From a virus: 64,000 nucleotides of DNA. Position numbers and translations under genes: made by a program. How positions within the stretch are numbered: the stretch's first letter is position 1; the number at the start of each line of letters is the position of its first letter. Positions 13,184 to 32,147 of this stretch are shown here, in pieces. A model generated the notes under the pieces. The model was not told where the DNA came from. It saw only the letters and a list, made by a program, of their open reading frames with translations, and did no database searches. Location: the IMG/VR virus record IMGVR_UViG_3300045988_154892. The stretch is one strand, 5' to 3'.

Positions 13184-13363
13184 TTAAACGTAAAGAATAT
13201 TACTATATTGAATTTTTGATAAATCTAAATCATCGGAAAAATATAGTTTATCATCATTTAAAAATGTATAGACGCCGTTTTGCGTATCAATAATTTGATA
13301 TCCCGATTTTACAAGCGTCTTCATTGTATCTATATCAGACACTTTAATAAAATTTTTCTTCAT
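13184..13363 (-). CDS. hypothetical small protein (59 aa, below ORF-track cutoff)
   Basis: ATG 13363-13361 behind a GGAG RBS. MKKNFIKVSDIDTMKTLVKSGYQIIDTQNG..., hand-translated 60 codons to TAA. Confidence 0.5.
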   Translation of the reverse strand: MKKNFIKVSDIDTMKTLVKSGYQIIDTQNGVYTFLNDDKLYFSDDLDLSKIQYSNILYV

Positions 13364-13380
13364 ATAAGTATCAGCTCCTA

Positions 13381-15048
13381 TTACATATTATTTTTATCTT
13401 GTTCACGAGTATCTGAGCCACTGTCTGTCAAATCTGTTGCATCAGATTCTGGCCTTCCTCCAGATATAGGATCTGTTCCAGAGCTTGTTTGAGTATAGCT
13501 TGTATTTAATGGAGTCATAAGATTTGATAATCCGAGTGCATTTTCAAGATACAACGCAGATAATTGTTCAAGCTGCGTATCGCCGTCGAGAATACCAATT
13601 TTCATTTTTGCAAATCCATTTTGAGCTGATTCAAGATACTCTTTCCTTTTGGATTTTCTTGTATACGGGCAGACACCTTCGAGGTATTTGATAGAAGCGT
13701 GATCTGTTCCAATAACATAATTAAAATACAGATTTAGATAACGATTAATTTGTGGAACCAGCGTACTATGCGCAATTTCCATGTCTGCGATAATTTGCGC
13801 TTCATAAATAGTAGATCCTGTTTTGTCATTATCAAGAATAACACCACCAATTCTCTTAAACAGATTTGATAAAGAACTAGAGATCATATCTGTATCATCG
13901 GTTGTATTAAGATCCTTAAATTCAATTGGCTCTATTGGAATAGGAGATAGACATGCGTTTACGCATTCAGGGAGTTTTTCAGCAAACTTATTATAATATT
14001 GAAGCGCAGTTACTGGATCAACTTCAAAATTATCTGGTTCATCAGATCCAGATATAGGCTTAAGTCTTGCAACAAGTAGTTTATATGCACTCAATTGATC
14101 TTTAGCCGTCTTTAAGGCTTGTAAATCAATGTTAGAAATTATGCTTTCAAATAACGAAGCAAACGGTGGATAATCCATAGTTGGATCATCAGAATTTATC
14201 TTGAAACAAATTTGCCTTTCTGGCTCCAGCTCTTGCCAACGAAAAGTAGAATCTTTTTGATAAGCTTCATATTTAGATTTAAATTCACTATCCCAATATT
14301 CGAGATAAGCTTCATGTGAACGAAAATACGAGAAATCAAACGCGAATCGAAATACACCGGCTTCGATCGAAGAAATTCTGCAATAATCTCCATCTAGGAT
14401 TTGGTAGAAACACGTACCACCTTCTTGGTCAGAATCATCATAGACATATGCATATACTGTATCTTCGCGCCATGCTACTAATAAAAGTTTTGTGATTTCA
14501 TCTTTGAAATCTAATCGCTGCCATCGAACTAGGGTTTCATAATACTTCTGTACAATTTCATTATTATTTATTGGTTGTGTTAAGTCGACAAGTGGAGTGA
14601 TATTAAAAGCGTCTCCACATATCATCCTGGCATAAAAATTACAAATACGACGATATTCATAACATAATCTATACAAATATCTACTTAAATTTCTAATTTG
14701 AGATTCATAGGATTTTGGGGATTTAAGATATGTACGAAGTGTTTCTCTAGAATAAGTCTGAAATGTTCTGTTTTCTGTTTTTGATAAGTCAACCAGCTGC
14801 AGTGCATCAAGCATCGCTTTAGTTGTTGCAAACATTTCATTTACGCGTTCTTGCTTAGTAAGCGTTGTACTGATTTCTTTAACGGTCTTTGCACCTTGCG
14901 GAGTACTCACTGTTGGTTTGATAGATTTTCTTGCATTCGCAAGTAATTTATCTACTTTATCCGTCTTTTTGCTTTGTGTTGTATTAGAAATGGGAGGTGT
15001 ATTATCTAACACCTTCGGTTTGTTTTTTGATCCTTTAGGTCTACCCAA
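13381..15048 (-). CDS. portal protein (by size and position)
   Basis: 555-aa ORF immediately downstream of the large terminase gene. Confidence 0.6.
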   Translation of the reverse strand: MGRPKGSKNKPKVLDNTPPISNTTQSKKTDKVDKLLANARKSIKPTVSTPQGAKTVKEISTTLTKQERVNEMFATTKAMLDALQLVDLSKTENRTFQTYSRETLRTYLKSPKSYESQIRNLSRYLYRLCYEYRRICNFYARMICGDAFNITPLVDLTQPINNNEIVQKYYETLVRWQRLDFKDEITKLLLVAWREDTVYAYVYDDSDQEGGTCFYQILDGDYCRISSIEAGVFRFAFDFSYFRSHEAYLEYWDSEFKSKYEAYQKDSTFRWQELEPERQICFKINSDDPTMDYPPFASLFESIISNIDLQALKTAKDQLSAYKLLVARLKPISGSDEPDNFEVDPVTALQYYNKFAEKLPECVNACLSPIPIEPIEFKDLNTTDDTDMISSSLSNLFKRIGGVILDNDKTGSTIYEAQIIADMEIAHSTLVPQINRYLNLYFNYVIGTDHASIKYLEGVCPYTRKSKRKEYLESAQNGFAKMKIGILDGDTQLEQLSALYLENALGLSNLMTPLNTSYTQTSSGTDPISGGRPESDATDLTDSGSDTREQDKNNM

Positions 15049-15115
15049 TGATACACCTTCCTTTCGTAAAATTTATATTTTTAATTGGAGAATAAGAGAG
15101 AAGTGTGGGATAAAT

Positions 15116-17140
15116 TTAGTCAAAATATGAAAATGTTTTTGCTGTTTGAATTGGTAGCATATCGACGAGATTAGAAGAAGAGATAGATTTCTTCTTTTTA
15201 TTTTTAATATGTTCAAGTCTTTTTTCCGATAGGAACCAGCCTAACATTGCTAAGACATATGCCCTATCGTCGTGCATAGTTGCTTCAGAATTCCCCGTAT
15301 CCGCATCTTTATGTGGAGGAAGTTTAAAACTATCTTTTCCACCTTCTCTTTTTGTTCTGCAAATATTCACAATTTCTTCCTTCATGGCATCGATTTGAAC
15401 TAACGCCACCTCTTCATCCAAAGATAATTTATATGTAGTGGTTTTCGCTGATTCTATTTCAGATAATCTTTCTTCTAATTGTTCTTCATATTCACTGATA
15501 TCCAAATTCATTTTATCTAATTCAGCGCGAATACTTTCTTCAGACTTATGCATTAGCTCATCATCGACTTCCAGTATATTTAAGTAACCTTTATTGTCAT
15601 ATTTTTCAGTGAAATGAATTTTATTTGCTTCAACCATTTTTATCAAAGCTTCAAACATCTCTGATTTATATTTTGATGGTTCAATCAATTTTAACTTATT
15701 AACTGCTTCTGGATATCTCTTTGAATAGATATCTCCGTTTGTATAGTCTTTGTCAATTAATCCATGATGATTTTTCCCTGTTTTGTCTTTCCATTCCTCA
15801 ATTAGACTATCTCTAACCCAAGAGTTTCCACCTCCACCAGATCCTGCATCTGCCAAAACCAATTCGATGTTATCATAATCTAACGCATCACCATTGTAAT
15901 CCAACAGAAGATTATGCAATTCACGTATCTGGTCTTGTGTCATCATAGGAGTTTTCCTTCGAAGGCCTAAATCAGAAAATGAAATAACATTTACAATATC
16001 CATTGTGTACCCATCTTCTTCGTTGTATAATAGTTCTCCGATACCTAAAATTGAATTATCAGTAGATCTTGCTGGGTCATATGCAAATACAAATTTTCTT
16101 TCATTTGTATCATTATATAAAACAGGAGGCCTGTTATAAGAATTTCGAACAATTAGCGCACGTTTAATAATTTGTCCAACTCCACCATCTTGCGTAAATT
16201 GGTTATAATATTCTCGCATAGCTTTTTCAGGATTGTTTCTGATTTCATTCTCGATTGTTTCTCTATTTAACAATGAAGCAGGATAAGGTTTTCCGTGAAA
16301 AGTAGTGTTTATTACTATATCACAATTCAGATCCGCAACAAAATATCTTGGATCACCTAAAAACATTTTCTTTGAAAAGTCACGATATTTCTGATAAAAT
16401 GCAGTATCTACAGAAGATGCAGAGGATGCATATAATAATTGATGAGGGAATTCTTTTGGAACTGTGGCGACATCAATATCTCCGCCAAGTTTAAAGTCTG
16501 CACTCTGAGTTGTAAACGCACCAATAACATTGAATTCTTCTTCAGAAAGCCATCCTCCCTCATCAAAATAGACGGCCTCTGCACGTTTACCTCTTTTCGC
16601 ATTAATATTACTATTTAAGGTCTTCACAAAACTGCCATTATAAAGTTTATACGTGAATCCCATTGGATTATGGACAAAACCGGATGAATTCGCCTGAGAT
16701 ATTTCCACTTCATTTCTAAATACATCCGTAAGACCAGTCATTGATTCAATATTTTTCATTGCAATATCTTCAATTTTTCTAAATGTTTCTTGTGACTGAT
16801 CTGCAGTTCCAGAACAAATATATATTCTATAATTATTATGTAAAAGTCCACGAAGCATTGCATACAACGCTAATTTTGTTGTCTTACCAGCATTTCGACT
16901 TTCTAGCCATAGGACATACGGTCTTGTCCAGCTCATCATGAATGTATATTCCTGTGAATCTAATAAATCTACGCCCACGAATTCTGATAAAAATTTCGTT
17001 GGATATCGTAATCCCCATTGTTTTATTTCAGCTAATTTTTGATAACTTTCTAATTTTCTCTGAGATATTTCACGTTCTGTTGGTTTTACATAGATTTGGT
17101 AATTATTCGGCAATAAGATTCCAGAGTCTGTCTCAAGCAT
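15116..17140 (-). CDS. terL: terminase large subunit
   Basis: 674 aa. Walker A-like SRNAGKTTKL, Walker B-like AVYFDEGGW, and a C-terminal nuclease-sized domain. Precedes the portal gene. Confidence 0.8.
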   Translation of the reverse strand: MLETDSGILLPNNYQIYVKPTEREISQRKLESYQKLAEIKQWGLRYPTKFLSEFVGVDLLDSQEYTFMMSWTRPYVLWLESRNAGKTTKLALYAMLRGLLHNNYRIYICSGTADQSQETFRKIEDIAMKNIESMTGLTDVFRNEVEISQANSSGFVHNPMGFTYKLYNGSFVKTLNSNINAKRGKRAEAVYFDEGGWLSEEEFNVIGAFTTQSADFKLGGDIDVATVPKEFPHQLLYASSASSVDTAFYQKYRDFSKKMFLGDPRYFVADLNCDIVINTTFHGKPYPASLLNRETIENEIRNNPEKAMREYYNQFTQDGGVGQIIKRALIVRNSYNRPPVLYNDTNERKFVFAYDPARSTDNSILGIGELLYNEEDGYTMDIVNVISFSDLGLRRKTPMMTQDQIRELHNLLLDYNGDALDYDNIELVLADAGSGGGGNSWVRDSLIEEWKDKTGKNHHGLIDKDYTNGDIYSKRYPEAVNKLKLIEPSKYKSEMFEALIKMVEANKIHFTEKYDNKGYLNILEVDDELMHKSEESIRAELDKMNLDISEYEEQLEERLSEIESAKTTTYKLSLDEEVALVQIDAMKEEIVNICRTKREGGKDSFKLPPHKDADTGNSEATMHDDRAYVLAMLGWFLSEKRLEHIKNKKKKSISSSNLVDMLPIQTAKTFSYFD

Positions 17141-20440: not shown

Positions 20441-20468
20441 ATGTATGTCTCCTTTTATAAAAAAATAA

Positions 20469-20551
20469 TACCGGCAGCGAGACTCGAACTCGCACTGCTC
20501 ATAACAATCTGGGCTTAAACCAGATGTGTCTACCAATTCCACCATACCGGC
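20469..20551 (-). tRNA. tRNA-Leu (anticodon UAA), class II
   Basis: Hand-folded cloverleaf: GCCGGUA acceptor, GUGG-AAUUGGUAGA-CAC D-arm, UCUGG-UUUAAGC-CCAGA anticodon arm, long variable arm, GCGAG-UUCGAGU-CUCGC T-arm. Confidence 0.8.
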
Positions 20552-20586
20552 ATACGGAGGCACTGCCTCCATTCGCTAATTATATA

Positions 20587-20676
20587 CGGAGCCTGTGGGA
20601 TTCGAACCCACGCGCCGTTGTTAGCGGCCTGTCAGTTTTCAGGACTGATCTCTTCATCCAACTTGAGTAAAGCTCC
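20587..20676 (-). tRNA. tRNA-Ser-like (anticodon UGA), class II, unusual C at position 33
   Basis: GGAGCUU acceptor, UCAGU-CCUGAAA-ACUGA anticodon arm, GCCG-cuaacaa-CGGC variable arm, GUGGG-UUCGAAU-CCCAC T-arm. Confidence 0.65.
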
Positions 20677-20686
20677 AAAACAAAAA

Positions 20687-20770
20687 TGAGCAGAGTAGGA
20701 GTCGAACCTACGGTGTTTCTAATGTGACGGATTTACAGTCCGTTGCTATCGCCACTAAGCACATCTGCCC
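20687..20770 (-). tRNA. tRNA-Tyr (anticodon GUA), class II
   Basis: GGGCAGA acceptor (one G-U pair), ACGGA-CUGUAAA-UCCGU anticodon arm, GUAGG-UUCGACU-CCUAC T-arm. One extra nucleotide before the D-stem. Confidence 0.75.
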
Positions 20771-20803
20771 ATAAAAATAGGAGAGTAGATTGCTCCACTC
20801 TCC
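20771..20803 (-). terminator. intrinsic terminator after DUF262 gene
   Basis: Minus strand GGAGAGUGGAGCAAUCUACUCUCC followed by UAUUUUUAU. Confidence 0.65.
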
Positions 20804-20838: not shown

Positions 20839-21816
20839 TTATAGATTATCTACGACTTTATTCCAATACTGTAGACGAGCTTTAACGCCAGCAGAAGCAG
20901 TAGTTCCAGACTGTACGAGCTGTTTATATGCTTCATTGGAATCATAATTCTCAGCAAACTCATTTACCGCAGCTTCGAATTTTCTAAAATCTTTTCCGTC
21001 TTTAATACATTTATAACCGCCATACAGGATCATTGGGATAGAAGTAGATTTTACCTTGATTACTTCATCGCCTGTATTGAAAGCATCTAATACATCTGTT
21101 AATATACTGATATCAGTAGCATTGATATTTTCATCATACCAAACAACAAAACTGTCAATATCTTTCGCTCTAAATGATGTAAAATCATTTTCTTCATTTG
21201 TATTAATCAGCATAAGGGTTTCGCGGATCAGATCACGCTGAACATCTTTCTTATATTGTGCATCAGTAAGGATTTTCTCAAAGAACTCATGATCTGCAAA
21301 ATTAAAGATAACGTCACTTACTTTTTCACTCTCGATTGCTGTACGTTTTTGAGTATTGTTTAATGGTTTACCATTATTCTGACGAGTAAACATTTCTCGA
21401 ATATCTTCCCCAGTACAATCAGTAAACACATAGATTGTCATCTCATAATCATTTAATTTATCTTGTACAGCCTCATCAAGCTGTGCATATTTTTTACCAG
21501 CAATTTCATATACATCGCCATCAACTGTAACTGGTTTTAAATTTTTAGCCAATCTAAAACCATCTTTTTTAAAAAAGTCTCTTACTGTGGTAGCTCGCTG
21601 AACACCATCAAAAATTCTTCTTACATCGTCAGATCCGACTTCGCATCTAATTGGATCAATTGGATACGGACGAAGCATAGAGTCAATCAGTAAACTTTTC
21701 TGACGATTGCCCCACTGATTTTCCTGGCGTTGAAACTTGTGTTTCATACTGTATTTTCCTTTTGTGATATCTTTCGCAAAGTTCTTTGCACTCTGTCTTT
21801 TTACTACATAGTCCAT
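20839..21816 (-). CDS. DUF262 (GmrSD N-terminal / ParB-like) domain protein without a DUF1524 nuclease half
   Basis: FQRQENQWGNRQKSLLIDSMLRPYPIDPI and FDGVQRATT match the DUF262 signature. The C-terminal ~150 aa are unassigned. Confidence 0.75.
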   Translation of the reverse strand: MDYVVKRQSAKNFAKDITKGKYSMKHKFQRQENQWGNRQKSLLIDSMLRPYPIDPIRCEVGSDDVRRIFDGVQRATTVRDFFKKDGFRLAKNLKPVTVDGDVYEIAGKKYAQLDEAVQDKLNDYEMTIYVFTDCTGEDIREMFTRQNNGKPLNNTQKRTAIESEKVSDVIFNFADHEFFEKILTDAQYKKDVQRDLIRETLMLINTNEENDFTSFRAKDIDSFVVWYDENINATDISILTDVLDAFNTGDEVIKVKSTSIPMILYGGYKCIKDGKDFRKFEAAVNEFAENYDSNEAYKQLVQSGTTASAGVKARLQYWNKVVDNL

Positions 21817-22025: not shown

Positions 22026-22054
22026 TTGACAGATTTTTCCTCTTGCCATATAAT
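22026..22054 (+). promoter_or_regulatory. consensus sigma-A/sigma-70 promoter
   Basis: TTGACA (22026-22031), exactly 17 nt spacer, TATAAT (22049-22054). Confidence 0.8.
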
Positions 22055-22060
22055 CTATAT

Positions 22061-22420
22061 GTGAGAGTCCACCCAGGCGTTTCGTTTACGGCTGGATAAG
22101 ATGTTAAGGATTTTTCAGAGTCGCATCAGGATAGTGATATCCTGTTTAAATATACCCTTGCTAAGAAAGGAGGGTGATGCGATACGGATTTATTTCTTAA
22201 ATTTTTTAGAGATACATACATGGTCGTGAATGATAGTAACCTACTATCTACGATCGTTGCCGGGGTAGTTCTGTTGTTTTTACAGAATGTAATCCCAACG
22301 AAAAAAGACCGCTAGTTAAGCGATCCTTTTCGTAAGAAATTCAAATCAGCCGTCGTCCTTCGGCTCTGAGAAATCCACCTGGGTGAACATCTCAATTCTA
22401 TATATTCGATTTATTGGAAG
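22061..22420 (+). ncRNA. self-closing structured RNA of unknown class (moron-like cargo)
   Basis: 5'/3' pairing UGAGA 22062-66/UCUCA 22390-94 and CACCCAGG 22070-77/CCUGGGUG 22378-85. GUGA-capped 7-bp hairpin. Helix 22222-28/22249-55 has two G-U pairs legal only on plus. No credible ORF. Confidence 0.7.
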
Positions 22421-22449
22421 CCACTTGATGTTCAAGTGGTTATTTTTAT
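22421..22449 (+). terminator. intrinsic terminator of the plus-strand RNA
   Basis: CCACUUGA-ugu-UCAAGUGG followed by UUAUUUUUAUU. Confidence 0.8.
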
Positions 22450-22480
22450 TATTGTGATTGCTATGTAGTTCACTAAATCA

Positions 22481-22520
22481 CTCTACATTGCTCTACTTCA
22501 GTCTACTTTGCCTTACTTAC
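22481..22520. repeat. four tandem imperfect 10-mers (CTCTACATTG CTCTACTTCA GTCTACTTTG CCTTACTTAC)
   Basis: Read directly. Helical-repeat spacing, located just downstream of the int stop. Possible arm-type binding sites. Confidence 0.5.
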
Positions 22521-22547
22521 AAATGTAATATACCTTAATTTTTGAGG

Positions 22548-22572
22548 AATGTCAAGTCAAGTCTTGACAATT
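22548..22572. other. candidate attP core (inverted repeat around a 6-bp spacer)
   Basis: AAT-GTCAAG tcaagt CTTGAC-AATT, about 80 bp from the integrase stop codon. Confidence 0.35.
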
Positions 22573-22651
22573 GGTAAATTTGTAGTAAACTGGTACGGTT
22601 GTCACAAAATCAAAATACGATCTATATATGTATTATTCTCCGGATGGAAGA

Positions 22652-23668
22652 TTAAATTCCAAACATAGAATTGATTGTATCTTCCGAATGATCCTTTAAA
22701 TATCCCTGGGTAGTACTTGGATCTGAATGGTGTGCAAAAATTTGCACCTGTTCCAAAGGATATTTTCTAGGATTACCATTTTCATCAAGTAATCTTAAAT
22801 CTGTTCCTTGTGATAAACACTCAAGTCTACTATGTCGCATGGTATGAGTGAAAATATTACATGGTTCTCCACGAACCTCCGACAATATTTTTGAGATACT
22901 TACAATCCGATCATAAAGAACAGAAGAATCCGAAATTGATTGTTTATTTTCGCCGCTTCCTTTGATCCATAGAGAGTCAATATCATCATCTCCGCGCAAT
23001 TCAAGATATTTTCTAATTAATTCTCTTGTATCATCTAAGTATACTAAAGGAAACTTTTTGCCTCGTTTTCCGACAACTACATTAGTTTTGTTTCCATCTA
23101 ACAATCCGTACTTTTGGATTTGAAATAATTCATTTTTTCTGCCAGCAGAATCAAAACCAATACTCCATAAAACTGCAAGCTGCCATTTTTCTTGTTGTAC
23201 TAAAATATCTCTTACTTTAATAAATTCATCATATGTAAAGAAAAAGTCATCTTCATTATCTTTTACAGGTGATTTTGGTATTCCATGTACTTTTTTTGCA
23301 TAATTAATTTCATAATCATAATCATCATCGTCTTCGCAAAAAGTAAGAAGACTATTAATGGCACTTTTTAATCTATTTGTTCTTGCAGCAGACATTTCGC
23401 ATTCTTCAGTAAAATATAAACTAAGATTTCTAAAATCTTTTTTCTTCAAATCTAATACGCAACGATTGTCCAATTCTTTTAATATATAAATCATAATAAT
23501 ACGAAGATCATTGTGATAACCAGCAATGGTTCCTTTGCTCTTTTTTCTCTGTTTATATTCTTGAAGAAAATCATTCATTATACGTTTATTCTCTTTATTA
23601 ACTTGCGCCCATAATTCTTCTGTATAAAAATTATGATAAATTCGACCTCTACTAGCCATCCAACTCAC
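22652..23668 (-). CDS. int: tyrosine recombinase / phage integrase
   Basis: 338 aa. Catalytic pattern AGRKNE ... HTMRHS ... HHSDPSTTQGY (R, H-x-x-R, H, Y). Confidence 0.9.
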   Translation of the reverse strand: MSWMASRGRIYHNFYTEELWAQVNKENKRIMNDFLQEYKQRKKSKGTIAGYHNDLRIIMIYILKELDNRCVLDLKKKDFRNLSLYFTEECEMSAARTNRLKSAINSLLTFCEDDDDYDYEINYAKKVHGIPKSPVKDNEDDFFFTYDEFIKVRDILVQQEKWQLAVLWSIGFDSAGRKNELFQIQKYGLLDGNKTNVVVGKRGKKFPLVYLDDTRELIRKYLELRGDDDIDSLWIKGSGENKQSISDSSVLYDRIVSISKILSEVRGEPCNIFTHTMRHSRLECLSQGTDLRLLDENGNPRKYPLEQVQIFAHHSDPSTTQGYLKDHSEDTINSMFGI

Positions 23669-23687: not shown

Positions 23688-24728
23688 TTAACAATCTATA
23701 TTTTTAGTGTTTTTATAATTTTGTATAAATTCTTGTATCTGTTCTGGAGTATTATTTTTTTCTCCATATAAAGAATGAAAACTATTTGGGTATTTTATAA
23801 GGTGACATGCTTCACATAATGTAATACCATTGTTTATATCGTATCTTAAGTCTGGATAATCTGAAAAATTATATAAATGATGGGCGTTTAAATTACTACC
23901 ACGTTTCCCACAGCATTGACATGTATAATTATCCCTATCAAATACTTTTCTAACCCACTCTTTGTAGTATGTATTATTTCTTGCCATATGCTGTTCTGTT
24001 GTCGAAAATCCATCAAATTCATCTAATGGAATACCTCGTTGTCTACATGACGATTTAATACGACCTTGCAACGTAGATTGTGACTCACGTACTTTTCTAT
24101 AACCATCTTTTTCTTCATAATAAACAGAAAGTAGTTCACTTCTTGTTGGAATAGTGTAACCATATTCTTTTATTAAAGAAATTACGGTATTACCTGTTGT
24201 ATTATATTGTTTTGCAATCTCTTCAGATGTCATATGCTTAATAAAATACATCATATATAAGATTTCTTTTGGTAATATGTTTTTCAAATTTCCATATTTT
24301 GAAATATTGAATTTTGAAATCCATCCACGCAATGTTCGTGTATTTATATCGCATTCTTTTGCAATATCTTCAGCATTCTTATTTTTTACTATATATTCGT
24401 TATACAGCCATTCTTTATTTCTGTAAGGGATTTCTATAAAATATAATTTCCCATTTTCATCTCTATATTTCTTTTTATGGCTTAAACATTCTTGGCAACA
24501 ATAAAGATCTGATCGTAAATTCAAATAATCTTTATAAGGCATCTTTTTTATTTGATTACAGAAATCACATTGCACATCAACATTAAGCGTCGATCCAGAT
24601 GTTAAATCTTGAACATTTACAAAAAACTCATCTAAATGTTTTGTATAAATATAACCTTTATTTTCATAATGTTTTCTTGTATTTCCAGTCCATTTTATTT
24701 TAACTTGTTGTGGCAATACTAATCCCAT
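23688..24728 (-). CDS. free-standing HNH homing endonuclease with HTH repeats
   Basis: 346 aa. C-terminal CQCCGKRGSNLNAHHLYNF...NGITLCEACH. Two similar HTH segments (AEDIAKECDINTRTLRGW / SEEIAKQYNTTGNTVISL). Confidence 0.85.
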   Translation of the reverse strand: MGLVLPQQVKIKWTGNTRKHYENKGYIYTKHLDEFFVNVQDLTSGSTLNVDVQCDFCNQIKKMPYKDYLNLRSDLYCCQECLSHKKKYRDENGKLYFIEIPYRNKEWLYNEYIVKNKNAEDIAKECDINTRTLRGWISKFNISKYGNLKNILPKEILYMMYFIKHMTSEEIAKQYNTTGNTVISLIKEYGYTIPTRSELLSVYYEEKDGYRKVRESQSTLQGRIKSSCRQRGIPLDEFDGFSTTEQHMARNNTYYKEWVRKVFDRDNYTCQCCGKRGSNLNAHHLYNFSDYPDLRYDINNGITLCEACHLIKYPNSFHSLYGEKNNTPEQIQEFIQNYKNTKNIDC

Positions 24729-24904: not shown

Positions 24905-25672
24905 TTATGTAGCAGAAATATTCTTTACCCACTGATCATAATTTTCGATAATCCATTTTCTACCTTTTTCAGTCCATTTCAGACATGGAGCAGCATTCTT
25001 TGCAGTATAACTCTGATAATCTGCATATCCTTCTATAATTAGCCATTCATATTCAGCATATGGACACCATGTTCCAGATTGATTCTTAAAAATAATATGA
25101 TTAAGATTCATAATCTCATTAAGTTTTTGAGCACTTCTATAACCAAGATCCTTTGCTACAACGGTAGTAGTAATTAATCCGTCTTTATTAAGAACTTCAT
25201 CATGATATTCAACTTTTGGTTTCTGTTCCTCAATTTCTGCAACAAGTGGAGCAGTTTCGATCTCAACAAGCCGTTTATGGGCATAAGCGACTTCACTTGG
25301 GTCTTTACTAAACAACTGTAATTTTAAACGTTCTTCTTCAGAAAGTGTTGTCCCAGATTTTAACGTTTCTTCCATGGCGTTGAATGCATTAATATATTTA
25401 AGTTTCCATTCAAGAGCCTTCTTACCAGTAAATCCCATTGCAAGTAATGAAAACCCATCACGATTAACAAGAAAACAACGATATTCTTTTCCACGAGAAT
25501 TTACATATGTAGATTCATTAAACATTTCACTCCACAAAATTGTGGAGTCAGATTTTAACATGTTATCGATATCTCTTAAAACTTGATCATGCCTTTTGCC
25601 AAATTTTTCTGCAATATCATTGCTACTTGCTACCACTTGCCCTTTTTCTTCTTTTAAAATAATTTCGTTCAT
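24905..25672 (-). CDS. Rha-family regulatory protein with KilAC-type antirepressor C-terminal domain
   Basis: 255 aa. The N-terminus VVASSNDIAEKFGKRHDQVLRDIDNM is typical of Rha. The C-terminal half resembles AntA/KilAC. Confidence 0.65.
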   Translation of the reverse strand: MNEIILKEEKGQVVASSNDIAEKFGKRHDQVLRDIDNMLKSDSTILWSEMFNESTYVNSRGKEYRCFLVNRDGFSLLAMGFTGKKALEWKLKYINAFNAMEETLKSGTTLSEEERLKLQLFSKDPSEVAYAHKRLVEIETAPLVAEIEEQKPKVEYHDEVLNKDGLITTTVVAKDLGYRSAQKLNEIMNLNHIIFKNQSGTWCPYAEYEWLIIEGYADYQSYTAKNAAPCLKWTEKGRKWIIENYDQWVKNISAT

Positions 25673-25754: not shown

Positions 25755-25905
25755 ATTGCTGGTGCGATAGGAACATACCCTATACATTCGTTCCACCAAT
25801 AAAGATGAGATAGGAGAGTATTAACCATCCTATATTACTCATTATCAGGTTATCCACCCGTCTCTAATCATTTATTCTCTGCATTCGTTTGCAGAAAATT
25901 GTAAA

Positions 25906-25977
25906 CAGGAAGTCAGGGATTCGAACCCTGATTGACAGTTTTGGAGACTGTCGTGTTGCCAATTACACTAACGACCT
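25906..25977 (-). tRNA. tRNA-Trp (anticodon CCA) with two acceptor-stem mismatches
   Basis: GUGU-AAUUGGCA-ACAC D-arm, ACAGU-CUCCAAA-ACUGU anticodon arm, CAGGG-UUCGAAU-CCCUG T-arm. Acceptor AGGUCGU/ACUUCCU has U4-U69 and C5-U68. Confidence 0.6.
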
Positions 25978-26019
25978 GTATTTGAGTGCGTAAGCTGCAG
26001 TCTTACACACTCAACAAAA

Positions 26020-31181: not shown

Positions 31182-31200
31182 TTGCCACAAAGATAAATAG

Positions 31201-31274
31201 TTGGGGTGGTAGGACTCGAACCCACGACCGTTCGGATATAAGCCGAATGCTCTCACCAACTGAGCTACACCGCA
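31201..31274 (-). tRNA. tRNA-Ile (anticodon UAU)
   Basis: UGCGGUG acceptor (C3-C70 mismatch), GCUC-AGUUGGUGA-GAGC D-arm, UUCGG-CUUAUAU-CCGAA anticodon arm, GUGGG-UUCGAGU-CCUAC T-arm. Confidence 0.7.
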
Positions 31275-32147
31275 ATAATGCTACATAAGTAGCAAAATAA
31301 GTACGCTGAGATTAAACGTATCTTCGGAAACCTTTACCGACATTATTTTTTCTTCGGTTATCCACTATATGTTGCTTGCGCACACATATAGTATCTTCCA
31401 CAACCGCCTTTTAAGAAGAGGCTTATCTTCTTTGCTGTATGACTACTCAAGTTTCATCATTCCATTAACACTGCCGTGCTACAAATCTCTGCTAAGAGAA
31501 CTGTGCAGAATCCGCTTAACACATCCAGATATTGCGTATCTTTCAGTGTGTGTATTACCTCAAAAGAGATTACACATTTTGGCTGCTTACACCATACAGA
31601 GGTACAGACTTTCGCTTGTATAATTTGTTTACCTTTTGCATTAAACCAATTTTTATATTCTTCCTGAATATACTAATTAATAGAAACGAAATTGAATACA
31701 GAAGACGCGCTGCACCAGATGTTTCGTTATCTTTTGGATAACAAAATCCATCACGCCTTCGTAGCTTTCGGTTATAATCCCTACTCGCATCCTGCATAAG
31801 CTAATTTGGCATCTCTACCAATTCACTTACCCAAATGGACATCGCACTTGTCTAATAAGGACTCGCACTATATATCCTCCTAATTCCCCATCATATCTTC
31901 ATAGGTTCGCGTGAGCTATTCTGTTGCGCAGAAAAATGATTCTCAGCGGTTGCCCCTGAATCACCTTGTTGCTCCCTATTTCCTGACACTATTTCCACAC
32001 AGGATTTACTCGTTTTACCGGTATGAAACAGCACTTTTTGAGTGCCTGGGATGTTAGTTTTGCATAGATTGACCAATTTTCATGGCGACGAGTTGTAAAT
32101 TCGCCTTTAATACGCTCACACGCATCTATCTGTGCTATGCCACGAGT
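31275..32147 (-). ncRNA. large ORF-free structured region, candidate giant ncRNA (GOLLD/ROOL-like context)
   Basis: About 870 nt without a credible ORF, flanked by tRNA(-like) genes. Many minus-strand-specific helices including GNRA-capped 31391-31365 and an 11-bp helix at 31576-31549. Confidence 0.45.

What the first reader, a model, noticed from the sequence alone, without database searches (positions are those of the whole stretch)
22026..22449. Plus-strand self-closing ~390-nt RNA with perfect promoter and terminator, set like a moron between int/attP and a DUF262 gene
A perfect TTGACA-17-TATAAT promoter fires antisense to every neighbouring gene. The predicted transcript closes on itself: UGAGA 22062-66 pairs with UCUCA 22390-94, and CACCCAGG 22070-77 with CCUGGGUG 22378-85. 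It encloses a junction UCGCAU(C) 22121-27 / GAUGCGA 22176-82 that holds a 7-bp GUGA-capped hairpin (CAGGAUA-GUGA-UAUCCUG) and an ACCCU/AGGGU hairpin. A further helix GGUCGUG 22222-28 / UACGAUC 22249-55 has two G-U pairs that are legal only on the plus strand. The RNA ends in a textbook terminator. The only AGGAGG lies inside a helix, 3 nt from an ATG followed by 7 codons. I see no RNase P (GGAAAGUCC), tmRNA (T-arm) or SRP signatures. An RNA expressed from the prophage end, divergent from a DUF262 (GmrSD-like) gene, could be a lysogeny-expressed regulatory, antitoxin or defence-associated RNA.
Basis: partly seen in the sequence, partly recalled or inferred. Interest (0 to 1): 0.8.

Follow-up and report, generated by a model that had tools for sequence, protein, structure and literature searches.

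The report
Phage toxin mRNA with antisense antidote
The "self-closing RNA" is real, but it is most likely the tightly folded messenger for a tiny membrane toxin, paired with an antisense antidote RNA on the other strand: a type I toxin-antitoxin module from a family of gut phages that no curated database lists.

Summary
The plus strand folds far better than chance (z = -7.0). In 16 relatives, 14 base pairs change on both sides yet stay paired, against 3.7 in shuffles. No Rfam family matches.

It is not a free-standing noncoding RNA. It is homologous along its length (nhmmer E = 1e-14 and 5e-10) to about 350-nt transcripts in other uncultured gut phages. Those share its plan: a near-consensus promoter, a 5' end paired to the 3' end, and a three-way junction that buries the ribosome-binding site and start codon. 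They encode 38-42 aa hydrophobic peptides with basic tails. GenBank names two of these "toxin".

On the minus strand, a conserved promoter (22555->22527) and a terminator hairpin over the peptide's stop codon define an antisense RNA of about 225 nt. That hairpin is valid only on the minus strand.

The best reading is a type I toxin-antitoxin module (confidence about 0.68), usually next to a tyrosine recombinase gene.

One oddity remains. The window's subfamily has lost the canonical start codon, yet the hydrophobic frame (22178-22315) still evolves like coding sequence.

This is a new member of a known kind. Interest is moderate.

The parts
22026..22054 (+). Promoter of the structured mRNA (TTGACA-17-TATAAT). 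The transcript is predicted to start near 22061.
   Evidence: The match is 12/12. The promoter is conserved in all homologues. Canonical relatives have 10-12/12 promoters at the same place.
22061..22449 (+). Predicted transcript of about 390 nt: the putative type I toxin mRNA.
   Evidence: It folds with z = -7.0. Covariation supports the structure. It is homologous to the SD+ORF transcripts of L136 (E = 1e-14) and L132 (E = 5e-10).
22062..22077 (+). 5' strand of closing helix P1. It pairs with 22378-22394.
   Evidence: Three pairs covary. The 5'-end/3'-UTR duplex is -26.9 kcal/mol against -16.2 +/- 2.9 for shuffles. Nine relatives keep the same closure with different sequences.
22378..22394 (+). 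3' strand of closing helix P1.
22108..22120 (+). 5' strand of the second long-range helix P2 (GGAUUUUUCAGAG). It pairs with 22364-22376.
   Evidence: Twelve pairs are invariant in 16 sequences. An analogous second long-range helix appears in L131.
22364..22376 (+). 3' strand of P2 (CUCUGAGAAAUCC). It lies inside the stretch covered by the antisense RNA.
22121..22183 (+). Three-way junction: P3 (22121-27 / 22176-83), a GNRA-capped hairpin P3a (22127-44), and P3b (22154-59 / 22169-75). P3b pairs with the Shine-Dalgarno sequence.
   Evidence: Compensatory changes occur in all three helices between the window subfamily and canonical relatives. The GGAGG is invariant, and the loop stays GNRA (GUGA or GCGA).
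22166..22173 (+). Shine-Dalgarno sequence AAAGGAGG, sequestered in P3b.
   Evidence: In canonical relatives, GUG follows 7-12 nt later.
22177..22200 (+). Short leader ORF (ATG + 6 codons + TAA), with its start codon in the 3' strand of P3. It is 10 or 18 codons long in relatives and is not conserved as a peptide.
   Evidence: Read from the alignments. Both other plus frames, one of which is the leader ORF's, show no coding signal.
22178..22315 (+). Hydrophobic reading frame, stop-free from 22178. The annotated ORF is 22220-22315: MVVNDSNLLSTIVAGVVLLFLQNVIPTKKDR, the putative toxin.
   Evidence: This frame has 10 synonymous-only codon columns against 19 with amino-acid change, and a mean BLOSUM of +0.64. 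The other plus frames give 4/26 and 2/25 with negative BLOSUM; Fisher p is about 0.017. A 17-aa window has Kyte-Doolittle 2.16, followed by the basic tail PTKKDR. The peptide aligns with canonical peptides at ..TIVAG.. and K(K/N)DR.
22299..22332 (-). Hairpin over the stop codon. It is the intrinsic terminator of the antisense RNA, followed by UUUUUU on the minus strand.
   Evidence: Folding gives -21.2 kcal/mol on the minus strand against -12.0 on the plus strand, because minus-strand G-U pairs become A/C mismatches on the plus strand. The same asymmetry holds in all 17 family members tested. The sequence is nearly invariant in A1. A below-threshold STnc390 match (22 bits against a gathering score of 50) simply reflects a hairpin plus a U run.
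22348..22365 (+). Hairpin P8 (AGCC...GGCU). Canonical relatives have a hairpin with the same AGCC/GGCU stem at this position.
22419..22451 (+). Intrinsic terminator of the plus-strand RNA.
   Evidence: The stem is invariant and the loop varies.
22527..22555 (-). Promoter of the antisense (putative antitoxin) RNA: TTGACA-17-TATATT.
   Evidence: The match is 11/12. The -35 is invariant. The -10 is TATATT or TATTTT in 11 relatives, including those with a different gene upstream. Equivalent antisense promoters lie 100-120 nt past the stop codon in L132, L136, L147 and L152.
22297..22520 (-). Predicted antisense RNA of about 225 nt. It overlaps the last ~150 nt of the mRNA: the stop codon, P8, the 3' strands of P2 and P1, and the terminator.
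   Evidence: Its ends are set by the promoter and terminator above. It folds into a terminal hairpin plus three smaller hairpins, z = -3.7. No expression data exist.

Best explanation
The locus is a type I toxin-antitoxin-like module carried by a large uncultured gut phage whose host is probably a member of the Clostridia.

**Toxin mRNA.** The plus strand makes a messenger of about 390 nt for a very small membrane peptide, with one hydrophobic helix and a short basic tail. The messenger is built to be translationally silent. Its extreme 5' end pairs with its 3' untranslated region through two long-range helices. A three-way junction also buries the ribosome-binding site and the start-codon region.

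**Antitoxin RNA.** The minus strand makes a convergent antisense RNA of about 225 nt from its own conserved promoter. This RNA ends at a terminator hairpin lying over the toxin's stop codon. It is perfectly complementary to the last ~150 nt of the messenger. By analogy with bsrG/SR4 and txpA/RatA in Bacillus prophages, the duplex would trigger RNase III-dependent decay or keep translation off.

**Likely role.** If the element or the antisense RNA is lost, the more stable messenger would be processed or unfolded and translated, and the peptide would damage the membrane. Because the module recurs next to tyrosine recombinase genes, the likely role is stabilising the prophage or episome, or abortive infection or exclusion.

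**Shown:** the structure, its conservation, homology to SD+ORF transcripts, the signals for the antisense gene, and a coding-type substitution pattern.

**Inferred:** expression, toxicity, neutralisation by the antisense RNA, and the biological role.
For: 1. **The structure is real and on the plus strand.** It folds with z = -7.0. In 16 relatives, 14 pairs change on both sides against 3.7 in shuffles, 0 of 500.
2. **It is homologous to mRNAs.** A scan for the junction+SD motif found 27 further viral loci (17 distinct) and 6 genome loci. Each has a 10-12/12 promoter, the same 5' hairpin and junction, and an SD followed by GUG inside the 3' strand of P3. Each also encodes a 38-42 aa ORF such as MTFIELLIFTIVTGIVSGVVATYLVRFFDRHKNDRHSPKHGH. 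L136 and L132 align to window 22061-22358 (E = 1e-14) and 22078-22410 (E = 5e-10).
3. **The junction covaries between subfamilies while GGAGG stays fixed**.
4. **5'-end to 3'-UTR closure is conserved with different sequences** in 10 of 10 representatives. Energies run from -17 to -27 kcal/mol, and at most 2 of 300 shuffles do as well.
5. **The peptides have the type I toxin profile.** Each has a 17-aa hydrophobic window (Kyte-Doolittle 1.8-2.2) and a basic tail. GenBank names two homologues 'MAG TPA: toxin', DAO02569.1 and DAH30140.1. PMC6563280 gives the class profile: under 60 aa, a transmembrane domain, a charged C-terminus, convergent antisense, a prophage location and prophage stabilisation.
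6. **The window's hydrophobic frame shows coding-type variation.** It has 10 synonymous-only codon columns against 19 with change, and BLOSUM +0.64. The other plus frames give 4/26 and 2/25; p is about 0.017.
7. **The antisense gene has conserved signals.** The promoter is conserved even where the upstream gene differs. The hairpin over the stop codon is always more stable on the minus strand and has a U tract only there.
8. **mRNA folding locks and 3'-overlapping antitoxins are documented in type I systems.** Examples are aapA1/IsoA1 (PMC5416894) and bsrG/SR4 (PMC3834814).
Against: - No expression, toxicity or neutralisation data exist.
- The peptides match no curated toxin family in Pfam, NCBIfam or PHROGs, and no PDB sequence. 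hhalign to Fst and PepA1 gives only 12% and 28% probability.
- In the window's subfamily, the SD-proximal ATG (22177) opens only a 7-18-codon ORF in another frame.
- No canonical start codon of the hydrophobic frame is conserved. ATG 22220 occurs only in the window. The GTG two codons later is GTA or ATC in 4 of 25 sequences. How the peptide is made is therefore unexplained.
- Variable sites show no third-position excess: 12, 9 and 12 for the three codon positions.
- The antisense frame that shares wobble positions is also stop-free, with 8 synonymous-only columns.
- The conserved K-K/N-D-R tail could reflect the nucleotide needs of the antisense terminator (A run plus GACCGC) rather than protein function.
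- No gene caller predicted the window's ORF in 5.8 billion clusters.
Confidence: 0.68

Rival explanations
1. It is a noncoding structured RNA that descends from a toxin mRNA but no longer encodes a toxin. The fold itself would be the function, for example a decoy or sponge for antisense RNAs of related modules, or a stable RNA with an unknown partner.
For: The window subfamily has lost the canonical GUG start. GAU aligns with that GUG by eye (no tool alignment was made), and the SD is followed by a 7-18-codon ORF in the wrong frame. The fold is very strong and covaries, with a conserved GNRA loop and two invariant long-range helices. No gene caller predicted the ORF. Variable sites show no third-position excess.
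Against: All 25 distinct window-type sequences share the loss of the start. Even so, the hydrophobic frame stays stop-free for 45 codons, and its changes are synonymous or conservative (I/V, K/R, L/M, D/N) far more often than in the other plus frames. The SD remains invariant. The antisense gene with its own promoter and terminator is retained, which is costly if there is nothing to silence.
Confidence: 0.15
2. It is an antisense-regulated gene for a small membrane protein that is not a toxin. The protein could be a superinfection-exclusion factor, a holin or antiholin-like lysis regulator, or a membrane modulator expressed from the prophage.
For: The features match those of the main reading: a small single-pass peptide and its own promoter and terminator. 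PHROGs gives only weak similarity to a holin family, E = 0.056-0.098. The module is set like a moron, beside an integrase-like gene.
Against: Three layers of silencing are the hallmark of genes whose product is harmful: 5'-3' closure, burial of the SD and start codon, and a dedicated convergent antisense RNA ending over the stop codon. The holin similarity is not significant. Two homologues carry the GenBank name 'toxin', although that name comes from an annotation pipeline, not from a test.
Confidence: 0.12
3. It is a cis-regulatory sensor. The three-way junction would act as a riboswitch or RNA thermometer that opens the SD in response to a ligand or temperature, and the antisense transcript would be incidental.
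For: The junction strand GUUUAUAUAGAUA and the GNRA loop are conserved across subfamilies, and the SD is sequestered in a short helix.
Against: No Rfam riboswitch or thermometer matches. The only hit, OppA_thermometer, scores 15 bits against a gathering score of 290 and lies outside the element. The conserved 5'-3' closure and the conserved antisense promoter and terminator are not explained by this reading.
Confidence: 0.04

Closest known systems
bsrG/SR4 and txpA/RatA: type I toxin-antitoxin systems of Bacillus subtilis prophage-like elements (PMC3834814; PMC6562991 appeared only in the search list and was not read)
   Same: Both have a small hydrophobic toxin and a structured toxin mRNA of about 300 nt with a partly sequestered SD. 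Both have a convergent cis-antisense RNA (100-220 nt) overlapping the 3' end of the toxin mRNA, and both sit on prophage-type elements. SR4's terminator loop makes the first contact with bsrG mRNA (abstract). Here the antisense terminator hairpin lies exactly opposite the mRNA hairpin that holds the stop codon.
   Different: There is no sequence similarity to the TxpA/BsrG toxins (no Pfam or NCBIfam hit). This mRNA also closes its 5' end onto its 3' UTR through two long-range helices. The window subfamily lacks a canonical start codon. Nothing here has been tested experimentally.
hok/sok (plasmid R1) and aapA1/IsoA1 (Helicobacter pylori) (PMC5416894)
   Same: Both use an mRNA folding lock. In aapA1, the full-length transcript folds so that translation is impeded, and 3'-end processing makes it translatable (abstract). 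From textbook knowledge, hok mRNA is closed by 5'-3' fold-back pairing. This family conserves 5'-end/3'-UTR pairing in 10 of 10 representatives.
   Different: In hok/sok and aapA/IsoA the antisense RNA overlaps the 5' translation-initiation region. Here it overlaps the 3' end, including the 3' strands of the closing helices. The hosts are Gram-negative, and the peptides are unrelated.
Clostridioides difficile prophage type I TA modules such as CD0956.2/RCd10 and CD2907.1/RCd9 (PMC6563280, PMC7699646)
   Same: Both have a Clostridia host range and a prophage location. The toxins are 30-59 aa with a hydrophobic N-terminal region and a charged, lysine-rich C-terminus. Toxin and antitoxin genes are convergent and overlapping, and the proposed role is prophage stabilisation.
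   Different: The review itself says these toxins show no homology to other families. Association with CRISPR arrays or a c-di-GMP riboswitch is not seen here. The recurrent neighbour here is a tyrosine recombinase.
Fst/RNA II (par locus of pAD1) and the PepA1/SprA1 family
   Same: Both have a toxin of about 30 aa with a single helix and a convergent antisense RNA that shares the terminator region with the toxin mRNA (textbook knowledge).
   Different: There is no Pfam or NCBIfam Fst hit. The 5' extension of the antisense RNA shows no extra trans-pairing with the mRNA's 5' region, unlike the par direct repeats.
   Same: It is a phage-borne, highly structured RNA several hundred nucleotides long, near tRNA genes. 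A genuine GOLLD RNA lies 9 kb away in the same window.
   Different: No Rfam model matches. It carries a conserved SD and a coding-type frame, and it has a dedicated antisense partner.

Membership tests
Type I toxin-antitoxin system (class) | A small (under 60 aa) hydrophobic peptide with one predicted transmembrane stretch and a charged C-terminus. | tested here: met
   Window ORF: a 17-aa window with Kyte-Doolittle 2.16 and the tail PTKKDR. Canonical relatives: Kyte-Doolittle 1.9-2.1 and tails with 4-7 K+R. Criterion taken from PMC6563280.
Type I toxin-antitoxin system (class) | A cis-encoded antisense RNA gene that overlaps the toxin mRNA. | tested here: met
   Met at the level of sequence signals only. 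The minus-strand promoter (11/12) is conserved across relatives. A terminator specific to the minus strand lies over the stop codon in all 17 members tested. The predicted overlap is about 150 nt. Transcription was not observed.
Type I toxin-antitoxin system (class) | The peptide is toxic when expressed. | not testable with these tools
   This needs an induction experiment. The only hint is the GenBank name 'toxin' on two homologues.
Type I toxin-antitoxin system (class) | The antisense RNA prevents toxin synthesis, by blocking translation and/or promoting mRNA decay. | not testable with these tools
   Inferred from complementarity alone.
Type I toxin-antitoxin system (class) | The toxin ORF has a functional translation start. 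| tested here: inconclusive
   Canonical relatives have an SD followed 7-12 nt later by GUG. In the window subfamily, the SD is followed by ATG in another frame (7-18 codons). No canonical in-frame start is conserved, and ACG or AUA sits 10 nt after GGAGG in the hydrophobic frame.
Fst/Ldr, TxpA/BsrG, Hok/Gef and other curated type I toxin families (Pfam, NCBIfam) | A significant match to the family profile. | tested here: not met
   No such family matched seven peptides at E <= 10. hhalign to Fst gives 12% and to PepA1 28%. A PDB sequence profile search found only chance transmembrane matches.
Rfam RNA families (RNase P, tmRNA, SRP, 6S, GOLLD, ROOL, riboswitches, known antitoxin sRNAs) | A covariance-model score at or above the gathering threshold. 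| tested here: not met
   Nothing reaches the gathering score in 22026-22449. At E < 10 there are only sub-threshold chance hits. Four canonical loci also give only tRNAs and one sub-threshold tmRNA match, 17.5 bits against 47.
C. difficile prophage type I toxins (CD0956.2 group) | Sequence similarity to those toxins. | not tested
tblastn of the canonical peptide against 50,697 GenBank phage records, which should include C. difficile phages, found nothing at E <= 1.

The most novel reading that the evidence does not exclude
The window's subfamily is a type I toxin whose synthesis depends on an unconventional translation event. The canonical GUG start is gone, yet the hydrophobic frame stays open and evolves like coding sequence right back to the buried ribosome-binding site.

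The peptide may therefore be made in one of three ways:
- initiation at a near-cognate codon (ACG in the window, AUA in 24 relatives, 10 nt after GGAGG);
- a +1 shift just after the conserved AUG-CGA;
- termination-reinitiation after the 7-18-codon leader ORF.

Any of these would add a fourth, recoding-based safety catch to a toxin gene. Alternatively, the RNA has become a noncoding derivative of a toxin mRNA.
Probability: 0.2. Interest if true: 0.6.

Novelty: new member of a known kind. Interest (0 to 1): 0.4.

Why it matters
[quoted passage not shown] Few are known from gut Clostridia, and none from their large uncultured phages. This family of at least 40 distinct sequences is absent from Rfam, Pfam, NCBIfam and PHROGs.
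- **A ready search model.** The conserved architecture is a promoter, 5'-3' closure, an SD-burying three-way junction, and an antisense terminator over the stop codon. A covariance model built on it could annotate these modules.
- **A possible stability cassette.** The module repeatedly sits convergent with tyrosine recombinase genes of very different sequence. This suggests a recombinase-plus-addiction cassette for prophages or phage-plasmids.
- **A cautionary example.** A strongly folded, covarying RNA with a perfect promoter and terminator can still be an mRNA.
- **A testable puzzle.** The loss of the start codon in the window subfamily raises a question about non-canonical translation of toxins that experiments can answer.

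Tried and rejected
- **Known RNA family.** Rfam was searched at gathering score on the whole window, at E < 10 on the region, and on four canonical loci. Nothing relevant turned up. The STnc390 hit (22 bits against 50) is only a hairpin plus a U run.
- **tmRNA or tRNA-like element.** ARAGORN finds only five tRNAs elsewhere.
- **Cultured relatives.** blastn of the RNA and of 9 kb of structural genes against 50,697 GenBank phage records found no match. The canonical peptide has no tblastn match in phages or plasmids. Only one unannotated faecal phage, MT835469.1, carries a canonical-type module.
- **Functional link to DUF262/GmrSD.** Rejected. The co-occurrence is limited to one syntenic clade.
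- **The 42-aa plus-strand ORF 22101-22229 and the minus-strand ORFs.** Single-base indels among relatives fall inside 22101-22229 (alignment). Over 22178-22312, its frame and four others contain stop codons in some relatives. The one other stop-free frame, on the minus strand, has negative BLOSUM. It lies beyond the antisense terminator and does not encode a hydrophobic peptide.
- **Homologues of the window peptide in the protein database.** A 31-aa query is too short for the tool. A 45-aa open-frame query found nothing.
- **Trans-pairing of the antisense RNA's 70-nt 5' extension with the mRNA's 5' half (as in par).** It is no better than shuffles: -26.6 against -28.7 +/- 3.3 kcal/mol.
- **Chance pattern hits discarded.** L109 and L163, L167, L168, L180 and L182 are GC-rich and unrelated.
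- **MAFFT alignment A4 of the junction.** It misplaced the SD of the long-loop members, so helices were counted from regex-anchored strands instead.
- **A full-length covariance model.** Not attempted. The 400 columns would exceed the calibration time limit.
- **attP.** Repeats in 22440-22660 gave nothing decisive.
Full report

Yes.

- The consensus scan finds TTGACA-17-TATAAT at 22026-22054 (12/12). It also finds a 10-bp terminator stem at 22419-22441 followed by a T run.
- The 392-nt plus-strand RNA folds at -128.6 kcal/mol, against -91.4 +/- 5.3 for dinucleotide shuffles (z = -7.0).
- The minus strand also folds well (z = -6.5), so folding energy alone cannot pick the strand.
- Rfam 15 has no match at gathering score anywhere in the region, and only sub-threshold chance hits at E < 10.
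- ARAGORN finds no tmRNA.

**2. Context**

The window is part of a large uncultured phage.

- It has a portal gene and a terminase-like gene at 13381-17140, five tRNA genes, and a genuine GOLLD RNA at 31303-31761 on the minus strand.
- The element lies between a GmrSD_N/DUF262 gene (20839-21816, minus; Pfam 1.4e-10) and a tyrosine-integrase-like gene (22652-23668, minus; phrog_1, 4.4e-23). An HNH endonuclease gene and a Rha/ANT antirepressor gene lie beyond.
- GenBank phages have nothing similar.

**3. Close homologues and covariation**

I fetched IMG/VR loci through the two flanking proteins. This gave 32 loci with the RNA, 15 distinct sequences in all. They are only 81-83% identical to the window, although the DUF262 protein is 96-98% identical in most of these loci and at least 90% in all.

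On the 16-sequence alignment A1, RNAalifold predicts 111 pairs. Counting on that structure gives:

- 98% of cells paired;
- 14 pairs changed on both sides, against 3.7 +/- 1.5 in column shuffles (0 of 500) and 0-3 when partners are slid;
- three covarying pairs in the 5'-3' closing helix.

The many G-U pairs place most helices on the plus strand. The fold is therefore real and conserved.

**4. The turning point: the same RNA with a clear gene inside it**

A profile of A1 weakly hit locus L002, whose integrase is 93% identical, at the same position (E = 3e-5). There, the same 5' hairpin and three-way junction are followed by AAAGGAGG, then 7 nt, then GUG and a 40-codon hydrophobic ORF.

A pattern built on the junction plus the SD then found 27 more viral loci (17 distinct) and six contigs in MAGs. 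The MAGs are labelled Lachnospiraceae, Eubacterium, Clostridiaceae and, for two short contigs, Bacteroides.

All of these have:

- a 10-12/12 promoter;
- the junction;
- an SD followed 7-12 nt later by GUG, sitting inside the 3' strand of junction helix P3;
- a 38-42 aa ORF, for example MTFIELLIFTIVTGIVSGVVATYLVRFFDRHKNDRHSPKHGH.

Two of these transcripts align with the window over nearly its whole length: L136 to 22061-22358 (E = 1e-14) and L132 to 22078-22410 (E = 5e-10).

Between the subfamilies the junction helices covary while GGAGG stays fixed:

| Helix | Window subfamily | Canonical relatives |
|---|---|---|
| P3 | GUCGCAU / AUGCGAY | GUCACGU / ACGUGAC |
| P3a | five variable pairs, compensated in all but two members (one mismatch in L089, two in L147) | same |
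| P3b | ACCCUU / GGAGGGU | AUCCUC / GGAGGAU |

The window RNA is therefore a divergent member of a family of small-ORF mRNAs.

**5. Shared architecture**

- A canonical transcript (L131:603-985) folds with z = -7.2 and the same plan. Its extreme 5' end pairs with the 3' UTR, followed by a 5' hairpin, a second long-range helix and the junction.
- In 10 of 10 representatives, the first ~20 nt of the predicted transcript pair with a segment 54-80 nt past the stop codon. Energies run from -17 to -27 kcal/mol, and at most 2 of 300 shuffles do as well.
- The paired sequences differ completely between members: GAGAGUCCACCCAGG in the window, UGUAGACACC in L132, ACCAAGUGAAAUUCC in L136.

It matches the folding locks described for type I toxin mRNAs. 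The aapA1 full-length transcript is untranslatable until its 3' end is processed (PMC5416894). From textbook knowledge, hok mRNA behaves likewise.

**6. The partner on the other strand**

- A minus-strand promoter, TTGACA-17-TATATT (22555->22527, 11/12), is conserved in all relatives examined. This holds even where the gene upstream of it differs.
- The hairpin at 22299-22332 contains the ORF's stop codon. It folds at -21.2 kcal/mol on the minus strand but only -12.0 on the plus strand, because two minus-strand G-U pairs become A/C mismatches. It is followed by UUUUUU only on the minus strand.
- The same asymmetry and the same UUUUUGUG tail occur in all 17 family members tested.
- Strong antisense promoters lie 100-120 nt past the stop codon in L132, L136, L147 and L152, and 205 nt past it in the window.

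Together these define a convergent antisense RNA of about 225 nt in the window (22520->22297). It is complementary to the last ~150 nt of the mRNA, including the 3' strands of both closing helices. This is the layout of bsrG/SR4 and txpA/RatA (PMC3834814).

**7. Does the window's copy code?**

The ORF 22220-22315 encodes MVVNDSNLLSTIVAGVVLLFLQNVIPTKKDR.

- It has a 17-aa hydrophobic window (Kyte-Doolittle 2.16) and a basic tail.
- It aligns with the canonical peptides at ..TIVAG.. and K(K/N)DR.
- Metagenome contigs raised the window-type set to 25 distinct sequences.
- In that set, this frame has 10 synonymous-only codon columns against 19 with an amino-acid change, and a mean BLOSUM of +0.64 (I/V, K/R, L/M, D/N).
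- The other two plus frames give 4/26 and 2/25, with negative BLOSUM and stop codons. Fisher p is about 0.017.
- The signal extends upstream of ATG 22220. The frame is open from 22178, that is, from the 3' strand of P3.

However, no canonical start is conserved.

- ATG 22220 is unique to the window.
- The GTG two codons later is GTA or ATC in 4 of 25 sequences.
- The SD-proximal ATG 22177 opens a 7-, 10- or 18-codon ORF in another frame.
- Ten nucleotides after GGAGG, in the hydrophobic frame, lies ACG (window) or AUA (the 24 others).

How the peptide is made is unresolved. Near-cognate initiation, a +1 shift after AUG-CGA, and reinitiation after the leader ORF all remain possible.

Two caveats apply. 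Variable sites show no third-position excess. The conserved KKDR tail overlaps the antisense terminator, so nucleotide constraints contribute to it.

**8. Comparison with known families**

- The peptides match no Pfam, NCBIfam or PHROG family and no PDB sequence.
- The protein database holds seven homologues of the canonical peptide. GenBank names two of them "MAG TPA: toxin [Caudoviricetes sp.]", DAO02569.1 and DAH30140.1.
- No cultured phage or plasmid carries the peptide. One unannotated faecal phage, MT835469.1, has the module.
- The class criteria in PMC6563280 are met at sequence level: a small transmembrane peptide with a charged C-terminus, a convergent overlapping antisense RNA, and a prophage location. 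Toxicity and neutralisation cannot be tested here.

**9. Neighbourhood**

The DUF262 association is clade-specific synteny.

The recurrent neighbour is a tyrosine recombinase gene convergent with the toxin mRNA. Four of the wider-family loci have one detectable by tblastn at 23-93% identity. The L131-type loci and a MAG contig have ones detectable only by Pfam.

This suggests, by inference only, a recombinase-plus-addiction stability cassette for a prophage or phage-plasmid.

**10. Verdict**

The interpretation as a noncoding RNA is replaced by a type I toxin-antitoxin-like module: a toxin mRNA on the plus strand and an antitoxin RNA on the minus strand. My confidence is about 0.68.

It belongs to a family absent from curated databases, so it is a new member of a known kind. 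The missing start codon in the window's subfamily is the one truly odd feature.

Noticed in passing
window 31303-31761 (-), with tRNA-Ile 31200-31274 (-): A full-length GOLLD RNA (Rfam RF02032, 195.9 bits against a gathering score of 150, E = 1e-53) lies immediately next to a tRNA-Ile(TAT) gene. This phage therefore carries a known giant ornate RNA 9 kb from the finding.
   Followed up: no
window 20468-20771 (-), 25905-25978 (-): A phage tRNA cluster (Leu-TAA, Ser-TGA, Tyr-GTA) lies just beyond the DUF262 gene, and a tRNA-Trp lies further on. Canonical relatives of the module also have tRNA genes close to the toxin promoter: L131 at 51-122 and L136 at 13256-13432.
   Followed up: partly
window 22450-22520 and alignment A2: Between the antisense -10 and the plus-strand terminator, relatives carry one of two unrelated cassettes. 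The longer one has three copies of (A/T)GTAGA(C/G) spaced about 10 nt apart. The other is 22 nt shorter. The gene beyond the antisense promoter also differs between relatives: an integrase-like gene in some, other genes in L089- and L095-type loci. The spot looks like a recombination junction, or possibly attP arm sites. I could not tell which.
   Followed up: partly
window 22549-22570: The antisense -35 sits inside the palindrome TGTCAAG-N-CTTGAC, extended to CTTGACTTGACA. A second TTGACA faces the other way (22564-22569, plus strand; -10 TAAACT here, TAGAAT in relatives). These could be back-to-back promoters or an operator. The plus-strand one would read antisense into the integrase-like gene.
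   Followed up: no
L189 (metagenome contig OODJ01015261.1), aligned to A1 columns ~222-277: One natural variant has a clean deletion. It removes the last ~13 codons of the hydrophobic ORF together with the antisense terminator hairpin. This would inactivate toxin and antitoxin together.
   Followed up: partly
window 22056-22452 compared with 20839-21816: The RNA is only 81-83% identical to its closest relatives, although the adjacent DUF262 protein is 96-98% identical in most of them and at least 90% in all. L173 looks like a mosaic of window-type and main-type segments. The module appears to be exchanged or to evolve faster than its flanks.
   Followed up: partly
window 22300-22315 and canonical loci: Dual coding: the lysine codons AAA AAA and GAC CGC that end the peptide (K-K-D-R, or H-K-N-D-R in relatives) are, on the other strand, the U tract and stem of the antisense terminator.
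   Followed up: partly
window 23688-24728 (-), 24905-25672 (-): A free-standing HNH endonuclease gene with an HTH domain and a Rha/KilAC (ANT) antirepressor-type gene lie just beyond the integrase-like gene. These are temperate-phage-like features in a contig family of 90-216 kb.
   Followed up: no
L157, L158 (genome contigs): Two short contigs (3-5 kb) that carry the module are binned into MAGs labelled 'uncultured Bacteroides sp.'. The other four hits are in Clostridia MAGs, so these two are probably binning errors.
   Followed up: no
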